64,000 nucleotides of DNA. Origin: the human T2T-CHM13v2.0 reference genome, Homo sapiens. Shown here in pieces: positions 41,739 through 54,918 of the stretch. Each line of letters starts with the position of its first letter. Positions within the stretch are counted from its first letter, which is position 1. Position numbers and translations under genes: made by a program. Where the stretch lies: the NCBI RefSeq assembly GCF_009914755.1, contig NC_060939.1; one strand, given 5' to 3'. The notes under the pieces were generated by a model that did no database searches, had not been told where the DNA came from, and saw nothing but the letters and a program-made list of their open reading frames with translations.

Positions 41739-42023
<285 letters not shown>

Positions 42024-42994
42024 TAGGCAGAGGCTAATACCTACAAAAAAGGAAAGAGAAGCTGGGTCCTGTCCCAGATCTGTAGGATGATCCTTCCTTC
42101 TCCAAGGTTTCTTTCTGTTGAGATCACTTTTATTTGTTGTTCATCTCTCTATTTCTCTCTTATTCTCTGGTTATTCAGAACATTTTCACAAAGTTCAGCT
42201 CGGGGAAGGAGATAATTGACATACATGTATATACAGACTTATGTATCTGTATATAAAAGAAATATCAAAAATAAAAATGGTACAAATAAGTCTACCCTCA
42301 CTACCTCTCCCCTCCGCCACAATCCCACTTCCACCTGTGTTAGTACTGACATCAGTTTGCTAGTGGTTTGCTTTGATTTATAAGTAGTATGTACAGCATG
42401 TTGTTCAGCACCTTGCTTTCCCCGATCCCATTTAAAATCCATTTTAGACATCTTTCTATGTGAGTGATTACTATACATTTCTTGGTATCTGATTCAAATG
42501 TCTCTATCCTCCATAAAAAAATCTAAAATTGTTGCTTACAAATTATTTTTTTTCCAGTTTCCATCTTTTTTTTTTAAGCCTGAAGAAAATAGAAAGTATA
42601 AAGATGGTTTTAAGGCCTAATCCATATTATAATTATATTAAATAGTCCTTTAAGTTTCATGTATTTGAAACTGTGAGGTGTTTCTTTTCACTTAAAGGTC
42701 ACACCTATTCTTCTTTCTTTGTTTAATTTACTATGGAAAAATAGAAATATTTCAAAATACTGACAGAATAGCATGTAACACATCCCCTCTTGTGCTTATC
42801 ATCTTAACAATTTTGAATTTGTAGCCAAAATTGTATGTATATATACACACCCCACCTCTTCTTGCTCCCTATTCCCAGTATTATTTTGAGAAGAATGTGT
42901 TTTCTGCTATGGGGCAGTATGTTCTATAGCTGTATTTGGCTTAGTGTTTTTCAGGTCTTTAATTTCTTCATTGATTTTCTGTATAGTTGTGGTT

Positions 42995-43297
42995 ATTTTG
43001 GTAGAGTCAGAATCTTGCTCTCTTGCACAGGCTGGAGTATGATCCTATCTCACTGTAACCTCACACTCCTGGGCTCAAGTGATCCTCCTGCCTGAGTGCC
43101 TTTTTCACTCAGCCTCCCAGGTAGCCAGGTCTACAGGCATGTGCCACCATGTCTGGCTAATTAAAAATTTTTTTTTTTGGTAGAGACAAGGTTTCATTAT
43201 GTTGCCCAGGCTGGTCTCAGACTCCTGGCCTCAAGTATCCTCCTGCTTCAGCCTCCCAAAGTGTTGGGATTATAGGCCTGAGCCACCGTGCGCAGCC
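42995..43297 (-). mobile_element. Alu (J)
   Basis: Diverged antisense dimer. Confidence 0.9.
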
Positions 43298-43577
43298 TAG
43301 TTGTTCTACCCATTATTGAAAATGGGATGTTGACATCTCTGTTACTCTTATATGATCCATTTGTTCTTCAATTGTTAGTTTTTGCTTCATGTGTTTTTGG
43401 ACTCTTATTAATTGTATATATTTTTTATAATCGATAGGTCTTGATTGGCCTTTTTATTGTAACATGTATTTCTGTCTGTAGTAACAATTTTTGTTTTAAT
43501 TCCTATTTTCAGTTTGATATTAGTATAGCCACTCCAGCTTTCTTTTTGGGTATTTGAAATTTTAAAAAATGGTATTT

Positions 43578-43892
43578 GGCCAGGCATGGTGGTTCACGCC
43601 TGTAATCCCAGCACTTTGGGAGGCCAAGGCAGGCAGATCGCTGGAGCCTAGGAGTTTGAGACCAGCATGGTCTCAACATGGCGAAACCCTCTCTCTACTA
43701 AAAATACAAAAAATTAGCCAGGTGTGGTGGTACACACCTGCAGTCCCAGGTACTTGGGAGGCTGAGGCTGAGGCACGAGAATTGCTTGAACCCAGGAGGC
43801 CAAGGTTTGCAGTGAGCCGAGATGGCACCACTAAACTCCAGCCTGGGTGACAGAGCAAAACTCTCTAAAAGAAGAAGGAAAAAAAAAAAAAG
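43578..43892 (+). mobile_element. Alu (S/J)
   Basis: Dimer; a(a/g)atggtat flanks. Confidence 0.93.
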
Positions 43893-44344
43893 ATGGTATC
43901 TTAAAATTTTTTAAAAATATTTTTTCTGCCAATCTCTTTTTTTTGATTGCAGTATTTAATCTATTTACATTTAATGCAGTTATTATAAAGTAGGAATTAT
44001 GTCTGCATTTTGCTATTTGTCTTCTATATGTCATGTTTTTTTTGTTTATTTCCCCATTACTACTTTCCTTTGTGTTAAATATATAATATACCATTTTAAT
44101 TACCTTAAAAAAAAAACTTTTTTTTTCACTTATTTTCTTAGTGGTTGCCCTAGAAATTACAAGTAACATCTTAGAACAATTTACTTTGAATTAACATCAA
44201 TTTAATTTCAATGGCATTATAAAAACTTTGCCCCAGTTATAGCTCACCATCCCCATTTGTGCTGTTGTCGCACATTACATCTTTACACATTTTAAACCCA
44301 TCAATGCAGTTTTATAATTCATACTTTATATAGTTAGTTGTCTC

Positions 44345-44648
<304 letters not shown>

Positions 44649-45235
44649 AGTTAGTTGTCTTTTAAAATCAGATAGAAGGAAAAGAGTTACAAAAATGCAT
44701 GTATACTGTTTTTATATTTACTTACTCTATTATTCCATGGGTGCTCTTATTTCTTCATGTGATTTGAGTTACTATTTTATGTCCTTTCATGTCTGCCCAA
44801 AGGACTCTCTTTTAGCATTTTATTTTGAGGCAGGTCTGCTAACAATGGATTCTCTATTTTGGCTTAGCTCGCACTGTTAATTTCATCTTCATTTTTGAAG
44901 GAAAGTCTTAATTTCTTTTTTTCTGTTTCTCACGTGGGATAATCTCAATTGGCCTATCTTCAGATTTGGCAGTTCTCTCTTCTTCAGGCTAATATCTGCT
45001 GCTGAGCCTCACCAGTGATTTTTTTTTTCATTTCCGTTATTGTAGTTTTCAACTCTAGAATTTCTATTTCACTCTTTAAAAAATGTCCGTTTTTAAACAG
45101 CATTTCTGTTTCTATTGATATCATTTTCGACCTTTCTTTTTAATTCTCTAGGCAGACTTTTTTTAACTCTTGTAAATATTTATAATAGCTGATTAGCATC
45201 CTTGTCTTATAAGCCTACATGCTAGACTTCCTTAG

Positions 45236-45648
<413 letters not shown>

Positions 45649-45996
45649 TAAATCATATGGCAACTCTGGAAATCAGATCTCCCCTCCCAGCCATGTGTTG
45701 TGTTTGCCGCTGCTGTTGTATTTGCTTGTTTAGTGACTTTCCTGTACTAGTTATCTGAAGTCTGTATTCTTTGTCATGTTATGTGATCCTTGTCATGCTA
45801 TGTGTAGTCTCTACTCCTTTAGCTTAGTGGTCAGCTAATGATTGAACAGAGATTTCCTTAAATGCTTTGAGCCTGTAAGTCTACCAGCCTTTGTTGAAGG
45901 GCTGGGTATGTGTTGTTGGGGCACGTTTCAATGCTCTGGAAGGCAATTGACAACTCTGCCTTAACTTTCAGTTCCTGCTTGCACAGTTGCTCAAGG

Positions 45997-46148
45997 TCTT
46001 TCTCAGGCTCAGACAAATGACAGTGACTCTGACAGTGAGTCCAAGAGGCAGGCCCAGAGATCCTCTGCTTCTGAGAGTGAGACAGAAGAGTCTGATGATG
46101 ACAAGAAGCCAAAGCGCAGAGGGTGTCCCAGGAGCGTGCGGAAGGACC
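45997..46148 (+). pseudogene. Partial intronic duplicate of CHD2 exon 26, including 10 nt of its acceptor
   Basis: Ungapped match to 41750..41901 with 8 mismatches in 152 bp. Confidence 0.95.
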
Positions 46149-47737
46149 CTTTGAGATCTTTCCTCTGCATGGACACAGACCTGCACATGTCAGAGCTTTT
46201 CAGAGTATCTATCCTATGAACATCTTTCCTCCCAGTTTTTCTTTTTGTCTTTGTTCAACCTTTTGTTATTTCCAGTTGGTAATGTTGCCTCAGGCCGTCA
46301 TGGTGTTAAATCTTTGCATCTAATTGTTTTTGACCAATGAATTTTGGACAGGGCTATTCACACAGTGAGTTCTGGGTCAGTCCAATAAAGACAAGCCTGA
46401 GAATGGAGCTTCTTAGGGTGCTGTTAGCCAGGTCCAGTCATTCTGGGGGAATAGGGCTTTTGGAGAACTCTCAACCTCTTCTTTACCCTCCAGTGGCTGC
46501 TGTGCTGCTGGTTACACAGCTATTGTAGTTGCAGAAGTGTTAGTTTTGAAGGCTGTCATGCAGCTGGGGTTAAGGGGTGGGAATAGTGCAAGTTAAAAAA
46601 TGCCTTGAAGCTTGCTGAGCCATTTTCTTGAATAAATTTCTTAGATGGCTGCACGCATTTGGTTAATTTCCAGAGTTGTGACAATACTGATTGTGACCGT
46701 TTATGCCAGCATTCCTATTGCTTTTATGGGGGAGCAGATTTTCACAGACCCTTAGTCTGTCATTTCGGAAGTGTTGTTATTTAGACATAAAATATTTCAG
46801 TGTCTGTCAAGAAGGAGAAATGCAGTTAAGGAGTAATCCTCAGGTTTTGTTCATATATAATACTTTCCTAACCTTTGTATCTGCGCTGTTCCTTTAATGT
46901 TGTTTTTAGCTATTGTCATATTCAGTCCCATTTTATTCTGTAGCCATGTCTTCTCATTTCCATTTTTCCCTTAGCATCTGTCCTTACATGGTTATATAAC
47001 CCAATTATCATAGTAATTTGGCATATTACATGATGCCCTTAATGTGTCATGAAGTCCTGGTTTTTAGTGGAAAGTACTGGTGACCAGCCTGTAGGAATGG
47101 GGATGATGGCATGAGTTGGTATGTAGCATAGTTTAGGGTAGAGACTTGCAGGAAGATAGATTGGATTTTTGGGAGGAGAGGTCAGTAGAGTTTCCAAAAT
47201 TGTTTGCCTAAGAAGTTTTAAATCATATTTTACTGTGCCTTATTCCAAAAACTATTTGAGACAGTCAAAAAAATCTTAACAGCTGAAAAATCATTGGTTT
47301 TCTAATAACGAAAAATATGGTATTGAAGGTAACAGTGGTGAACTGAATACGCTGATGAAACGATATAAGGGTTTGTCACAATAGAGTCGTGATGATTGAA
47401 TCCTTTATGACACAGTGAAGTCTATAAACTTGTATCTTCTAAAAAGGATATTAGAGCTAAGTCACAGTTCTCTAGCATGTTATCTAAGCAGGTTTATGTA
47501 CAGTCACTGAGAATAAAGTTGATCTTTAATTTGAATAGATTTTTAGCAGTCATTATTTTAAGTTGACTAGTTTCAAAGACATTCAACATTTATTCATTTT
47601 TTTGGTAGTGCAAGGATTGAGTCCACTCTATTTTTGACAATTTGCATGGCTCATATGTCATCACAGGATATGCTAGCATCAACATAACTAAAGTAAGTCT
47701 CTGTTTTTTTAATATGTTTTATTGATCCTATTCTTAG

Positions 47738-47779
47738 GTTCATCAAGGCTTATAAGAAGTTTGGTCTCCCTCTTGAACG
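47738..47779 (+). CDS. CHD2: CHD2 exon 27: FIKAYKKFGLPLE (SANT)
   Basis: cttag|G...CG|gtaagt; 42 nt; phase 2-2. Confidence 0.96.
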
Positions 47780-49070: not shown

Positions 49071-49277
<207 letters not shown>

Positions 49278-53502: not shown

Positions 53503-53709
<207 letters not shown>

Positions 53710-54409
53710 TAATATTTTTATATCGATTACTTATTTCTAACTATTTTCGAGGGGGCATCAAATTAGAAATTAGTATAGTCATTCTTGGAAATACTTCCAT
53801 CTTTAGCAGATTGTGGCACTGTTTCACGGATGAAGATAAAGGGAAAAGACAGTAGCCAGGTGAAATTTTGGGGAAACTGTAGGAGAAATCTTAAAATTCT
53901 GGTATTTAATTATAGGTCAGATTTCATTACAATAAATACCCAGGTGAGTTTGTTAATGATAAAAGCATTCCTTGGCCTTAGTTATTGGCCCTTTGTTTAA
54001 AAGTACATTTGAAACAACCATATTTCACTTCCTCACGTAAAGATTGAATGTCACCTTGGTATTCTTTGTAATGGAATTAAACATTGGCTGTTCTTCTCCC
54101 ACAAAATCGAGCCTCCCACCCTATCTGTTGCAAGTAGCAAGGCCATGGTTGGAGCTATAAGCAGGGAAGGCTGACTGGCTCAAATTTTGGTAGGATTTGC
54201 TCCATGTTGTGCTCCTGGCAGTTCAACAGTGCTCATCCCATCTGGTTTTAGGAGGGTGACAGCACCCTGCCTTAAGCACTGAGACCAGATTCAGTCTGGC
54301 AAGAGACCCAGTTGTTGTAGCAAGGAACAGATCATGTCCTGGCGTAGCTCAGTGCTCTCCGGCAATGCTCTAAGAAGCATTTTCAATCTAAAACGAAGCT
54401 TTAACCTAG

Positions 54410-54522
54410 CTCCAGGGATTCCCTGCTCCTGGAAGGAGGAAATCCACGACGGCTGGGATGCTCTAGCAGATGAAGCCACAAGCCCCTCCTACCTGAGTTG
54501 TTCTACCCTGTTAACAGCACAG
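54410..54522 (+). other. CHD2: Candidate poison (NMD) cassette exon in CHD2 intron 30
   Basis: cctag|CTC...CAG|gtagga; 113 nt; in-frame TAG at 54464-54466. Confidence 0.7.
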
Positions 54523-54630
54523 GTAGGAGCCATTGGGAGAGCTGGATTTCTCCATCCCATTTTGTAAAATGAGAACGGCTCGTGAGGGATTTTCAGTGAC
54601 TGGGAGCCATGGACATGAGATAGGATCTGA

Positions 54631-54918
<288 letters not shown>

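What the first reader, a model, noticed from the sequence alone, without database searches (positions are those of the whole stretch)
45997..46219. Intronic copy of exon 26 that kept its acceptor and gained a new donor: a candidate decoy or poison exon
Seen: 45997-46148 matches 41750-41901 without gaps at 144/152. It includes the intronic tctttctcag acceptor, so it is not from spliced mRNA, and I see no polyA tail or TSD. Five of the 8 changes are synonymous. The others are T>S, D>E and R>C, the last breaking the RGRP AT-hook core. The C>G at 46035 creates ACA|GTGAGT, defining a 28-nt micro-exon (46007-46034). A weaker AGA|GTGAGA at 46077 gives 70 nt. The 28-nt form reaches TAA in exon 27 if added after exon 26, or TAG in exon 28 if it replaces exon 26. 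Read-through stops at TGA 46217-46219. Inference: a templated insertion into an L1 that may divert CHD2 transcripts to NMD. It could also cause mis-mapping and false variant calls in exon 26 of this epilepsy gene.
Basis: partly seen in the sequence, partly recalled or inferred. Interest (0 to 1): 0.8.

Follow-up and report, generated by a model that had tools for sequence, protein, structure and literature searches.

The report
Old intronic copy of CHD2 exon piece
A 150-base piece of a CHD2 coding exon was copied long ago into a decayed L1 element in the next intron, probably as a DNA-repair patch, and nothing yet shows that the cell splices it.

Summary
Window 45997-46148 equals 41750-41901 without gaps at 144 of 152 bases. 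These are the only two copies in the T2T genome.

Fourteen other copies of the host repeat all lack the piece. They show no target-site duplication and no poly(A). About 18 nt of the repeat were lost at the insertion site. The junctions carry short microhomologies (TC, AGGACC). The host is an L1 lying antisense to CHD2, hit in its 5' UTR.

The best reading is an ancient, fixed, local templated insertion with junctions like class 2 templated sequence insertions (PMC5110952).

The poison-exon idea remains untested:
- The donor is as weak as, or weaker than, 20 of the 25 real CHD2 donors here.
- The native branch-site region was not copied.
- An AG lies 11 nt upstream of the acceptor, closer than at any of 25 real acceptors.
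- 87 intronic acceptor-donor pairs in the window pass the same crude thresholds.

The published CHD2 NMD event maps about 7.5 kb downstream. Mis-mapping is unlikely for reads of 50 nt or more. Interest is low to moderate.

The parts
41750..41901 (+).
   Evidence: The exon is old: the CHD1 paralogue on contig C5 keeps RGRPR and GF-DAEIR.
45997..46148 (+). Intronic copy, 4247 nt downstream of the source, same orientation, 144 of 152 bases identical.
   Evidence: It is absent from all 14 other copies of the host L1 family examined.
45997..45998 (+). 5' junction microhomology TC, shared by the source and by the host repeat.
   Evidence: 10 of 14 repeat copies read TC at this position. Repeat-to-window alignments run to 45998.
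46143..46148 (+). 3' junction microhomology AGGACC, matching the repeat imperfectly. The repeat resumes here after about 18 nt are missing.
   Evidence: 4 of 14 repeat copies read AGGGCC here, and most begin with AGG. Locus L014 aligns from 46143 onward.
45987..46006 (+). Candidate acceptor region. Only the last 8-10 nt (…TTTCTCAG) were copied from the true acceptor. Further AGs lie at 45994-45995, 45985-45986 and 45970-45971.
   Evidence: 12 of 17 pyrimidines (real acceptors: median 13). The nearest upstream AG is 11 nt away (the minimum over 25 real acceptors is 15). The source's native branch-site region is not in the copy.
46032..46040 (+). Candidate donor ACA|GTGAGT, created by the C>G at 46035. 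It would define a 28-nt exon, 46007-46034.
   Evidence: U1 duplex -5.7 kcal/mol, 7 of 9 consensus positions. Real donors have a median of -7.3 and a range of -12.2 to -4.2; 5 of 25 are as weak or weaker. 86 of 3471 intronic GT sites are as good on both measures.
46074..46082 (+). Second candidate donor AGA|GTGAGA, given a +5 G by the A>G at 46081. It would define a 70-nt exon, 46007-46076.
   Evidence: -5.4 kcal/mol, 6 of 9 consensus positions. The source equivalent scores -2.8 and 5 of 9.
46217..46219 (+). TGA that ends the exon-26 reading frame if no donor is used.
43297..46765 (-). Host repeat: a decayed L1 fragment (5' UTR, ORF1 remains, start of ORF2) on the minus strand, interrupted by Alus at about 43513-43979, 44335-44676 and 45278-45597. 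The insertion lies in its 5' UTR, about 0.6-0.75 kb from the L1 5' end.
   Evidence: Homology to many genomic copies at about 70% identity. In related copies the strand opposite to the window's plus strand encodes Tnp_22_dsRBD (E 4.3e-14), Transposase_22 (E 7.4e-6) and Tnp_22_trimer (E 1.9e-4, just under the cut-off).

Best explanation
This is an ancient, fixed, local templated insertion.

**Proposed sequence of events**
1. An L1 was already sitting antisense in this CHD2 intron.
2. A break, or a stalled replication end, arose in the L1's 5' UTR.
3. It was repaired by copying about 150 nt from a template 4.2 kb upstream in the same gene and the same orientation. That template was the last 8-10 nt of the preceding intron plus the first 142 nt of the exon.
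4. The patch was joined through 2-6 nt microhomologies, and about 18 nt of the L1 were lost.

The template was most likely nearby DNA, through a template switch or synthesis-dependent end joining. Unspliced nascent CHD2 RNA copied by a reverse transcriptase is the less likely alternative.

**Since then**
The copy has drifted to 5.3% divergence. By chance it gained GT donors behind its short inherited acceptor core. I infer that it is not a meaningful exon: at most it is a rare splicing error whose products NMD would remove.

**Shown versus inferred**
- Shown: the duplication, its boundaries, the empty-site structure, the L1 host, and the in-silico stop codons.
- Inferred: the repair mechanism, the age, and the lack of splicing.
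For: **Origin and structure**
- The match is 144 of 152 without gaps, with sharp ends. There are only two copies in the genome.
- None of the 14 aligned copies of the host repeat has the piece.
- The window's left flank aligns to those copies up to ...GGTC, and the right flank resumes at AGG(A/G)CC. About 18 nt present in most copies are missing between them.
- There is no duplicated target and no A-tract.
- These are the junction features that define class 2 templated sequence insertions: no target-site duplication, no poly(A), microdeletion and microhomology (PMC5110952, whole text parts 1-2 read).
- The intron bases in the copy exclude spliced mRNA as template.

**Direction and host**
- The direction is exon to intron. 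CHD1 shares the exon's RGRPR and GF-DAEIR motifs, so the exon predates the copy and the R>C change arose in the copy.
- The host is an L1, shown by ORF1 Pfam domains in related copies.

**Age**
- Divergence of 8 in 152 (Jukes-Cantor 0.055) means tens of millions of years under any of the rates tried. The rates are recalled values.
- This also rules out an assembly artefact or a recent private insertion.

**Against use as an exon**
- The donor is as weak as, or weaker than, 20 of the 25 real donors.
- The branch-site region was not copied, and an AG sits 11 nt upstream of the acceptor.
- 87 intronic acceptor-donor pairs in the window pass the same thresholds.
- RefSeq has no exon here (hub table).
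- The CHD2 NMD event used in print maps elsewhere.
- Four literature searches found no paper on an exon in this intron.
Against: **The copy is not a random pseudoexon**
- Its body is 95% identical to the first 142 nt of a constitutive exon, so it probably keeps exonic enhancers. I could not score these.
- Three of its eight changes create or improve GT donors (46035, 46081, 46124).
- The new donor's U1 pairing (-5.7 kcal/mol) is within the range of real CHD2 donors.

**Limits of the splice-site evidence**
- My splice-site measures are crude: U1 duplex energy, consensus count and pyrimidine count. No MaxEntScan or SpliceAI was available.
- I had no RNA-seq data, so lack of splicing is inferred, not shown.

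**Pattern of substitutions**
- Six of the 8 differences fall on third codon positions, and only 3 of 8 change an amino acid.
- This has P = 0.014 if all changes were neutral changes in the copy. It rises to P = 0.107 if the true exon also took synonymous changes.
- With eight sites this is not decisive, but it is not the cleanest neutral pattern.

**Unresolved**
- A DNA template cannot be told from an RNA template with these data.
They may list events in this intron.
Confidence: 0.7

Rival explanations
1. Same origin, but the copy is spliced into a fraction of CHD2 transcripts as a cryptic or poison exon. It would use 46007-46034 or 46007-46076, or one of the upstream AGs. This shifts the frame and sends those transcripts to NMD, with or without regulatory use.
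For: - The acceptor core TTTCTCAG|G is inherited from a constitutive exon, and the exon body is 95% identical to it.
- The GT donors ACA|GTGAGT and AGA|GTGAGA fall within the range of real CHD2 donors.
- All nine acceptor-donor combinations tested give a premature stop when added between the two exons.
- CHD2 is known to undergo NMD-coupled splicing at another site.
Against: - The native branch-site region was not copied, and an AG lies 11 nt upstream of the acceptor. The minimum at 25 real acceptors is 15.
- A consensus-like branch motif at about 45964 (my reading) would favour the AG at 45986 instead. This is inference.
- A 28-nt exon is very short for exon definition.
- 87 intronic pairs in the window pass the same thresholds.
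- RefSeq lists no exon here (hub table).
- The published CHD2 NMD event maps to 53565-54828.
- No paper was found on an exon in this intron.
Confidence: 0.17
2. The copy acts as a decoy exon. Its splice sites engage the ends of the intron without completing splicing. This would promote retention of this 5.8-kb intron rather than inclusion of an exon.
For: - Decoy exons are described as cryptic, rarely included exons inside larger retained introns. Only the search listing and abstract starts of PMC6097662 and PMC7373989 were seen.
- The copy offers an exon-like body with imperfect splice sites.
Against: - I have no evidence that this intron is retained.
- Nothing distinguishes this site from the other 86 pseudoexon-like pairs except its exon-derived body.
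- The idea is not testable with these tools.
Confidence: 0.04
3. L1-mediated retrotransposition of a CHD2 pre-mRNA fragment (a class 1 insertion), or a chimeric L1 that already carried the fragment when it inserted.
For: - The insertion lies inside an L1.
- The source is transcribed in the same orientation.
Against: - There is no target-site duplication, no poly(A) and no polyadenylation signal at the 3' end. A target deletion is present instead.
- The piece lies inside the L1 5' UTR with L1 sequence on both sides, and 14 of 14 other family copies lack it.
- The L1 is on the opposite strand to the fragment.
Confidence: 0.03
4. An assembly artefact, or an insertion private to the sequenced genome.
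For: Only one assembly was available to me.
Against: - An artefact or a recent event would be near 100% identical to its source. The copy differs at 8 of 152 sites, including three C/G transversions.
- Its flanks are continuous L1 sequence.
Confidence: 0.01

Closest known systems
Class 2 templated sequence insertions (TSI/TSIP; Onozawa and Aplan, PMC5110952)
   Same: - The donor site stays intact.
- The insert is about 150 nt. The experimental inserts were 73-414 bp.
- There is no target-site duplication and no poly(A).
- The junctions show microdeletion and microhomology.
   Different: - Those insertions are defined as templated from distant regions and are often RNA-derived. Here the template lies 4.2 kb away in cis, in the same orientation.
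- This one is old and presumably fixed, not polymorphic.
- Whether RNA was the template cannot be told.
Dispersed duplication with deletion at the insertion site, and replicative template switching (FoSTeS/MMBIR). Both names are recalled, not taken from a call.
   Same: - A short segment is copied to a nearby site in direct orientation.
- Microhomology is present at both joins, and a few bases are lost at the target.
   Different: - At about 150 nt it lies at the small end of what such classes usually describe.
- A single event cannot distinguish a replicative switch from break repair.
Poison exons / NMD-coupled cassette exons, for example the known CHD2 event (10.64898/2026.01.19.700316) and SCN1A
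   Same: Inclusion would introduce a premature stop far upstream of the last exon junction.
   Different: - No evidence of inclusion.
- The known CHD2 event lies between the exons at 53514-53664 and 54760-54882.
- The splice signals are mediocre.
Tandem exon duplication giving mutually exclusive exons (PMC8373072, search listing only)
   Same: An exon-derived sequence lies in the adjacent intron, in the same orientation.
   Different: - Only the first 142 of 176 exon bases were copied, without the donor.
- The copy sits 4.2 kb away inside an L1.
- The only frame-keeping form (116 nt, 46007-46122) relies on a poor donor: 5 of 9 consensus positions, -4.6 kcal/mol.
Decoy exons in retained introns (PMC6097662, PMC7373989; listing and abstract starts only)
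   Same: A cryptic exon-like unit inside an intron larger than 1 kb.
   Different: - No evidence that the intron is retained.

Membership tests
Class 2 templated sequence insertion (PMC5110952) | Inserted sequence is a copy of another genomic locus, and the donor stays intact | tested here: met
   Source 41750-41901 is intact inside the functional exon. The copy is at 45997-46148.
Class 2 templated sequence insertion (PMC5110952) | No target-site duplication, no poly(A) tract, no polyadenylation signal at the insert end | tested here: met
   The empty-site alignment with 14 repeat copies shows a deletion, not a duplication. The sequence after 46148 is repeat sequence, not an A-run.
Class 2 templated sequence insertion (PMC5110952) | End-joining features at the junctions (microdeletion, microhomology, or untemplated bases) | tested here: met
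   About 18 nt of the repeat are missing. TC lies at the 5' junction and AGGACC (5 of 6 against the commonest repeat reading) at the 3' junction.
Class 2 templated sequence insertion (PMC5110952) | [quoted passage not shown] | tested here: not met
   The template is 4247 nt upstream in the same gene and strand. I therefore say it works like a class 2 insertion rather than filing it as one.
Class 2 templated sequence insertion (PMC5110952) | RNA intermediate (reverse-transcribed template) | not testable with these tools
   The copy includes intron bases, so only unspliced RNA or DNA could be the template. Nothing distinguishes the two.
L1-mediated retrocopy (class 1 insertion / processed pseudogene) | Target-site duplication of 5 bp or more, a poly(A) tail, and loss of introns | tested here: not met
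   None of the three is present.
Poison exon (NMD-coupled cassette exon) | Inclusion places a premature stop upstream of later exon junctions | tested here: met
   All nine acceptor-donor combinations tested, when added between the two exons, give a stop at 46018, 47753 or 49132.
Poison exon (NMD-coupled cassette exon) | Usable acceptor (branch site, pyrimidine tract, AG) and donor | tested here: inconclusive
   The donor lies within the real range but is weak. The pyrimidine tract is adequate, but the branch region was not copied and an AG lies 11 nt upstream. The measures are crude.
Poison exon (NMD-coupled cassette exon) | Observed inclusion in transcripts that rises when NMD is blocked | not testable with these tools
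   No RNA-seq data were available. RefSeq lists no exon here (hub table). The published CHD2 NMD event maps to 53565-54828. Four searches found no report.
Decoy exon (PMC6097662) | Host intron is retained, and retention depends on the decoy's splice sites | not testable with these tools
   No expression data or reporter assay was available.
Tandem exon duplication / mutually exclusive exon | Whole exon duplicated with both splice sites, with the same length class so that the frame is kept | tested here: not met
   The last 34 nt and the donor are not copied. The 28-nt and 70-nt forms shift the frame. Only a 116-nt form with a poor donor keeps it.
L1 (LINE-1) as host element | Homology to a dispersed family whose members encode L1 ORF1/ORF2 domains | tested here: met
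   The flanks match many loci at about 70% identity. Related copies encode Tnp_22_dsRBD (52.7 bits) and Transposase_22 (26.7 bits), both above their cut-offs, on the opposite strand. The window's own ORF remnants gave no significant Pfam hit.

The most novel reading that the evidence does not exclude
The exon-derived copy is a lineage-specific (probably catarrhine) NMD-coupled cryptic exon of CHD2. It would have been born when a repair patch delivered a ready-made acceptor core and exon body, and point mutations then supplied a donor. If it is included at a few percent or more in neurons, it would be a second antisense-targetable unproductive splicing event in a haploinsufficient epilepsy gene. 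It would also be a clean example of exon birth from a templated insertion.
Probability: 0.1. Interest if true: 0.6.

Novelty: new member of a known kind. Interest (0 to 1): 0.25.

Why it matters
As it stands, this is a tidy, datable example of a local templated insertion. Both junctions can be reconstructed because the host is a multi-copy L1. It shows how repair patches can drop exon fragments into introns.

It would matter clinically only if the copy is spliced. CHD2 is dosage-sensitive, and unproductive splicing events are candidate targets for antisense upregulation.

For diagnostics it is of little concern. Reads of 50 nt or more distinguish the copy from the true exon.

Tried and rejected
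**Identifying the host repeat**
- I first scanned same-strand ORFs upstream of the repeat in related copies. All 59 ORFs from 8 copies, and then all 40 from four 6-kb extensions, gave no Pfam hit.
- Opposite-strand ORFs in the four extensions gave one weak RVT_1 hit among 43 (E 0.0028, below the cut-off).
- Opposite-strand ORFs nearer the junction then gave the L1 ORF1 domains.
- The window's own L1 ORF remnants gave no significant Pfam hit. My reading of 43834-44190 (minus strand) as the ORF2 N-terminus rests on recall only.

**Ideas considered and dropped**
- *Lariat idea.* I asked whether the copy's 5' end marks a reverse-transcriptase stop at a branch point. The base before the copy is an A at -11, but it lacks the U at -2. 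A better branch motif lies at about -22, so I dropped this (my reading).
- *AT-hook.* Pfam does not call an AT-hook in the exon peptide. The RGRP motif is a recalled consensus, supported only by its conservation in CHD1.
- *Selection on the copy.* The codon-position skew is suggestive but not significant once synonymous change in the true exon is allowed for.

**Searches and look-ups that gave nothing useful**
- The supplements of PMC6889285 give only transcript counts for CHD2 and one variant elsewhere. They hold no exon coordinates.
- The genome search of 41936-43010 failed three times on server errors and was answered on the fourth try.

- There was no access to other primate genomes, RNA-seq, SpliceAI or MaxEntScan.
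Full report
**1.
- Window 45997-46148 matches 41750-41901 without gaps at 144 of 152 positions. The E-value is 6.8e-65 within the window.
- Identity collapses at both ends: 4 of 10 and 2 of 10 bases in the next 10 nt.
- A search of the whole T2T assembly with the exon and its flanks finds only the source and this copy (2 of 2 candidates scored). An earlier search with the copy and its flanks agrees.
- A protein-level search adds only the CHD1 paralogue exon on contig C5.
- In the exon's frame, five are synonymous and three give T>S, D>E and R>C.
- CHD1 keeps RGRPR, so the R>C change arose in the copy. It also shows that the exon is far older than the copy.
I did not check them.

**2. What the copy sits in.**
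- The flanks 45635-45998 and 46143-46765 match a dispersed repeat at about 70% identity (47 matches listed from 40 scored candidates).
- Same-strand ORFs of related copies gave no Pfam hit (0 of 59; 0 of 40).
- On the opposite strand, related copies encode L1 ORF1 domains:
  - Tnp_22_dsRBD: E 4.3e-14, 52.7 bits
  - Transposase_22: E 7.4e-6, 26.7 bits
  - Tnp_22_trimer: E 1.9e-4, 22.1 bits against a cut-off of 22.2
- These domains lie 0.5-1.5 kb to the low-coordinate side of the junction.
- The host is therefore an L1 on the minus strand, antisense to CHD2. The insertion is in its 5' UTR, about 0.6-0.75 kb from the L1 5' end near 46765.
The orientation and the position within the L1 are new.
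- In the window, L1 homology runs only from about 43297 to 46765 and is broken by three Alus.

**3. How it got there.**
- I aligned 14 other copies of this L1 region with the window. None carries the CHD2 piece.
- The window's left flank follows them up to ...GGTC (45998). The right flank rejoins them at AGG(A/G)CC (46143-46148). About 18 nt that most copies have between these points are missing.
- The first two bases of the match (TC) are shared by the source and by 10 of 14 repeat copies.
- The last six bases (AGGACC) match the commonest repeat reading at 5 of 6 positions. Four of the 14 copies read AGGGCC.
- There is no duplicated target, no A-tract and no polyadenylation signal.
- At least eight unambiguous intron bases (TTTCTCAG) are included, so spliced mRNA was not the template.
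- These junction features are what Onozawa and Aplan use to define class 2 templated sequence insertions. They read them as patches used in double-strand-break repair (PMC5110952, text parts 1-2).
- One defining feature is not met. The template is not distant: it lies 4247 nt upstream, in cis, in the same orientation.
- I therefore describe the event as a local templated insertion that works like a class 2 insertion. In structural-variant terms it is a dispersed micro-duplication with a deletion at the insertion site (the term is recalled).
- The closeness and shared orientation favour a DNA template, through a template switch or synthesis-dependent end joining. Unspliced nascent RNA cannot be excluded.

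**4. Age.**
- The p-distance is 0.053 (Jukes-Cantor 0.055).
- With recalled substitution rates of 0.5-2.2e-9 per site per year, and different assumptions about how much the true exon changed, the estimates span 12-109 million years. At 1e-9 they are 27-55 million years.
- Three of the eight differences are CpG transitions, so the lower part of the range is more likely. This is inference.
- Either way, the copy is old and almost certainly fixed. It is not an assembly artefact.

**5.
- Adding 28 or 70 nt after the true exon gives TAA at 47753.
- Replacing the exon gives TAG at 49132.
- Read-through stops at TGA 46217.
- All nine acceptor-donor combinations I tried give a premature stop when added between the two exons.

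The splice signals are unremarkable.
- The donor ACA|GTGAGT pairs with the U1 5' end at -5.7 kcal/mol and matches 7 of 9 consensus positions.
- The 25 real CHD2 donors in the window have a median of -7.3 and a range of -12.2 to -4.2. Five are as weak or weaker.
- 86 of 3471 intronic GT sites are at least as good on both measures.
- The acceptor has 12 of 17 pyrimidines, against a real median of 13.
- Only the last 8-10 nt of the acceptor came from the true exon's intron. The native branch-site region was left behind.
- An AG lies 11 nt upstream, closer than at any of the 25 real acceptors, whose minimum is 15.
- Two further AGs (45971, 45986) follow a consensus-like branch motif near 45964 and would compete. 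This is my reading.
- With the same crude thresholds, 87 acceptor-donor pairs exist in the window's introns.

Points in favour of exon use:
- The body is 95% identical to a constitutive exon.
- Three of its eight changes create or improve GT donors (46035, 46081, 46124).

**6. What is in print.**
- A CHD2 NMD-coupled splicing event is known and is used as an NMD reporter (10.64898/2026.01.19.700316, passages read).
- Its primers map to 53565-53584 and 54809-54828. These lie in the exons at 53514-53664 and 54760-54882, about 7.5 kb downstream of the copy.
- None of the papers listed, or the passages I read, describes an exon in this intron. The searches were:
  - CHD2 with "poison exon" (20 papers)
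  - CHD2 with "non-productive", "nonsense-mediated" and "antisense oligonucleotide" (4 papers)
  - CHD2, "deep intronic", "pseudoexon" and "cryptic exon", any two terms (977 papers held at least 2 terms; none of the 15 listed mentions CHD2)
  - CHD2 with "cryptic exon" (12 papers)
- RefSeq lists no exon here (hub table).
- bioRxiv supplements were closed, so event tables that might cover this intron were not seen.

**7. Mis-mapping.** The longest identical run is 38 nt. Every read of 50 nt or more inside the shared stretch differs from the wrong locus by at least 2 bases, and reads of 100 nt or more by at least 5. False exon calls from this copy are unlikely with current read lengths.

**8. 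Verdict.**
- The structure and its origin are well supported.
- The functional idea is a fair hypothesis with no evidence yet, and with some features against it.
- This is a new instance of a known kind of event. Interest is low to moderate unless junction reads are found.

Noticed in passing
window 43297-46765 (minus strand) and 41936-43010: The host L1 keeps its 5' UTR, ORF1 remains and the start of ORF2, but lacks the 3' 4 kb or so. This is the opposite of the usual 5' truncation. The 1.07 kb between the exon and the Alu at about 43000-43300 is unique in the genome: apart from itself it has only one 48-nt match. A later deletion near that Alu is likely but was not examined.
   Followed up: partly
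window about 46182-46183: The window's L1 copy lacks about 30-35 nt that the other copies have just downstream of the insertion, between short direct repeats ending in ATGT. This looks like a separate small slippage deletion.
   Followed up: no
window 53565-53584 and 54809-54828: The primers published for the known CHD2 NMD-sensitive splicing event (bands of 192 and 181 bp against 169 bp) map to the exons at 53514-53664 and 54760-54882. The known unproductive event therefore lies in that 1.1-kb intron.
   Followed up: partly
window 46007-46148 against 41760-41901: Six of the 8 differences fall on third codon positions, and only 3 change the amino acid. This gives P = 0.014 if all are neutral changes in the copy, and P = 0.107 if the true exon also took synonymous changes. 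An outgroup would show how many changes happened in the real exon.
   Followed up: partly
window 46007-46122: The C>T at 46124 (the R>C change) also creates a GT (AGG|GTGTCC). A 116-nt exon ending there would replace the true 176-nt exon in frame with no stop. The donor is poor: 5 of 9 consensus positions, -4.6 kcal/mol.
   Followed up: partly
window 41936 (donor of the true exon): The real donor of the source exon, AAG|GTTGGT, has a U at +3 and a G at +4. It is only average by U1 pairing (-7.6 kcal/mol, 7 of 9 consensus positions).
   Followed up: no
L020:801-980 (+): There is a weak reverse-transcriptase (RVT_1) match (E 0.0028, below the cut-off) about 3.3 kb from the junction-equivalent in one related L1 copy, on the strand expected for an antisense L1.
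   Followed up: no
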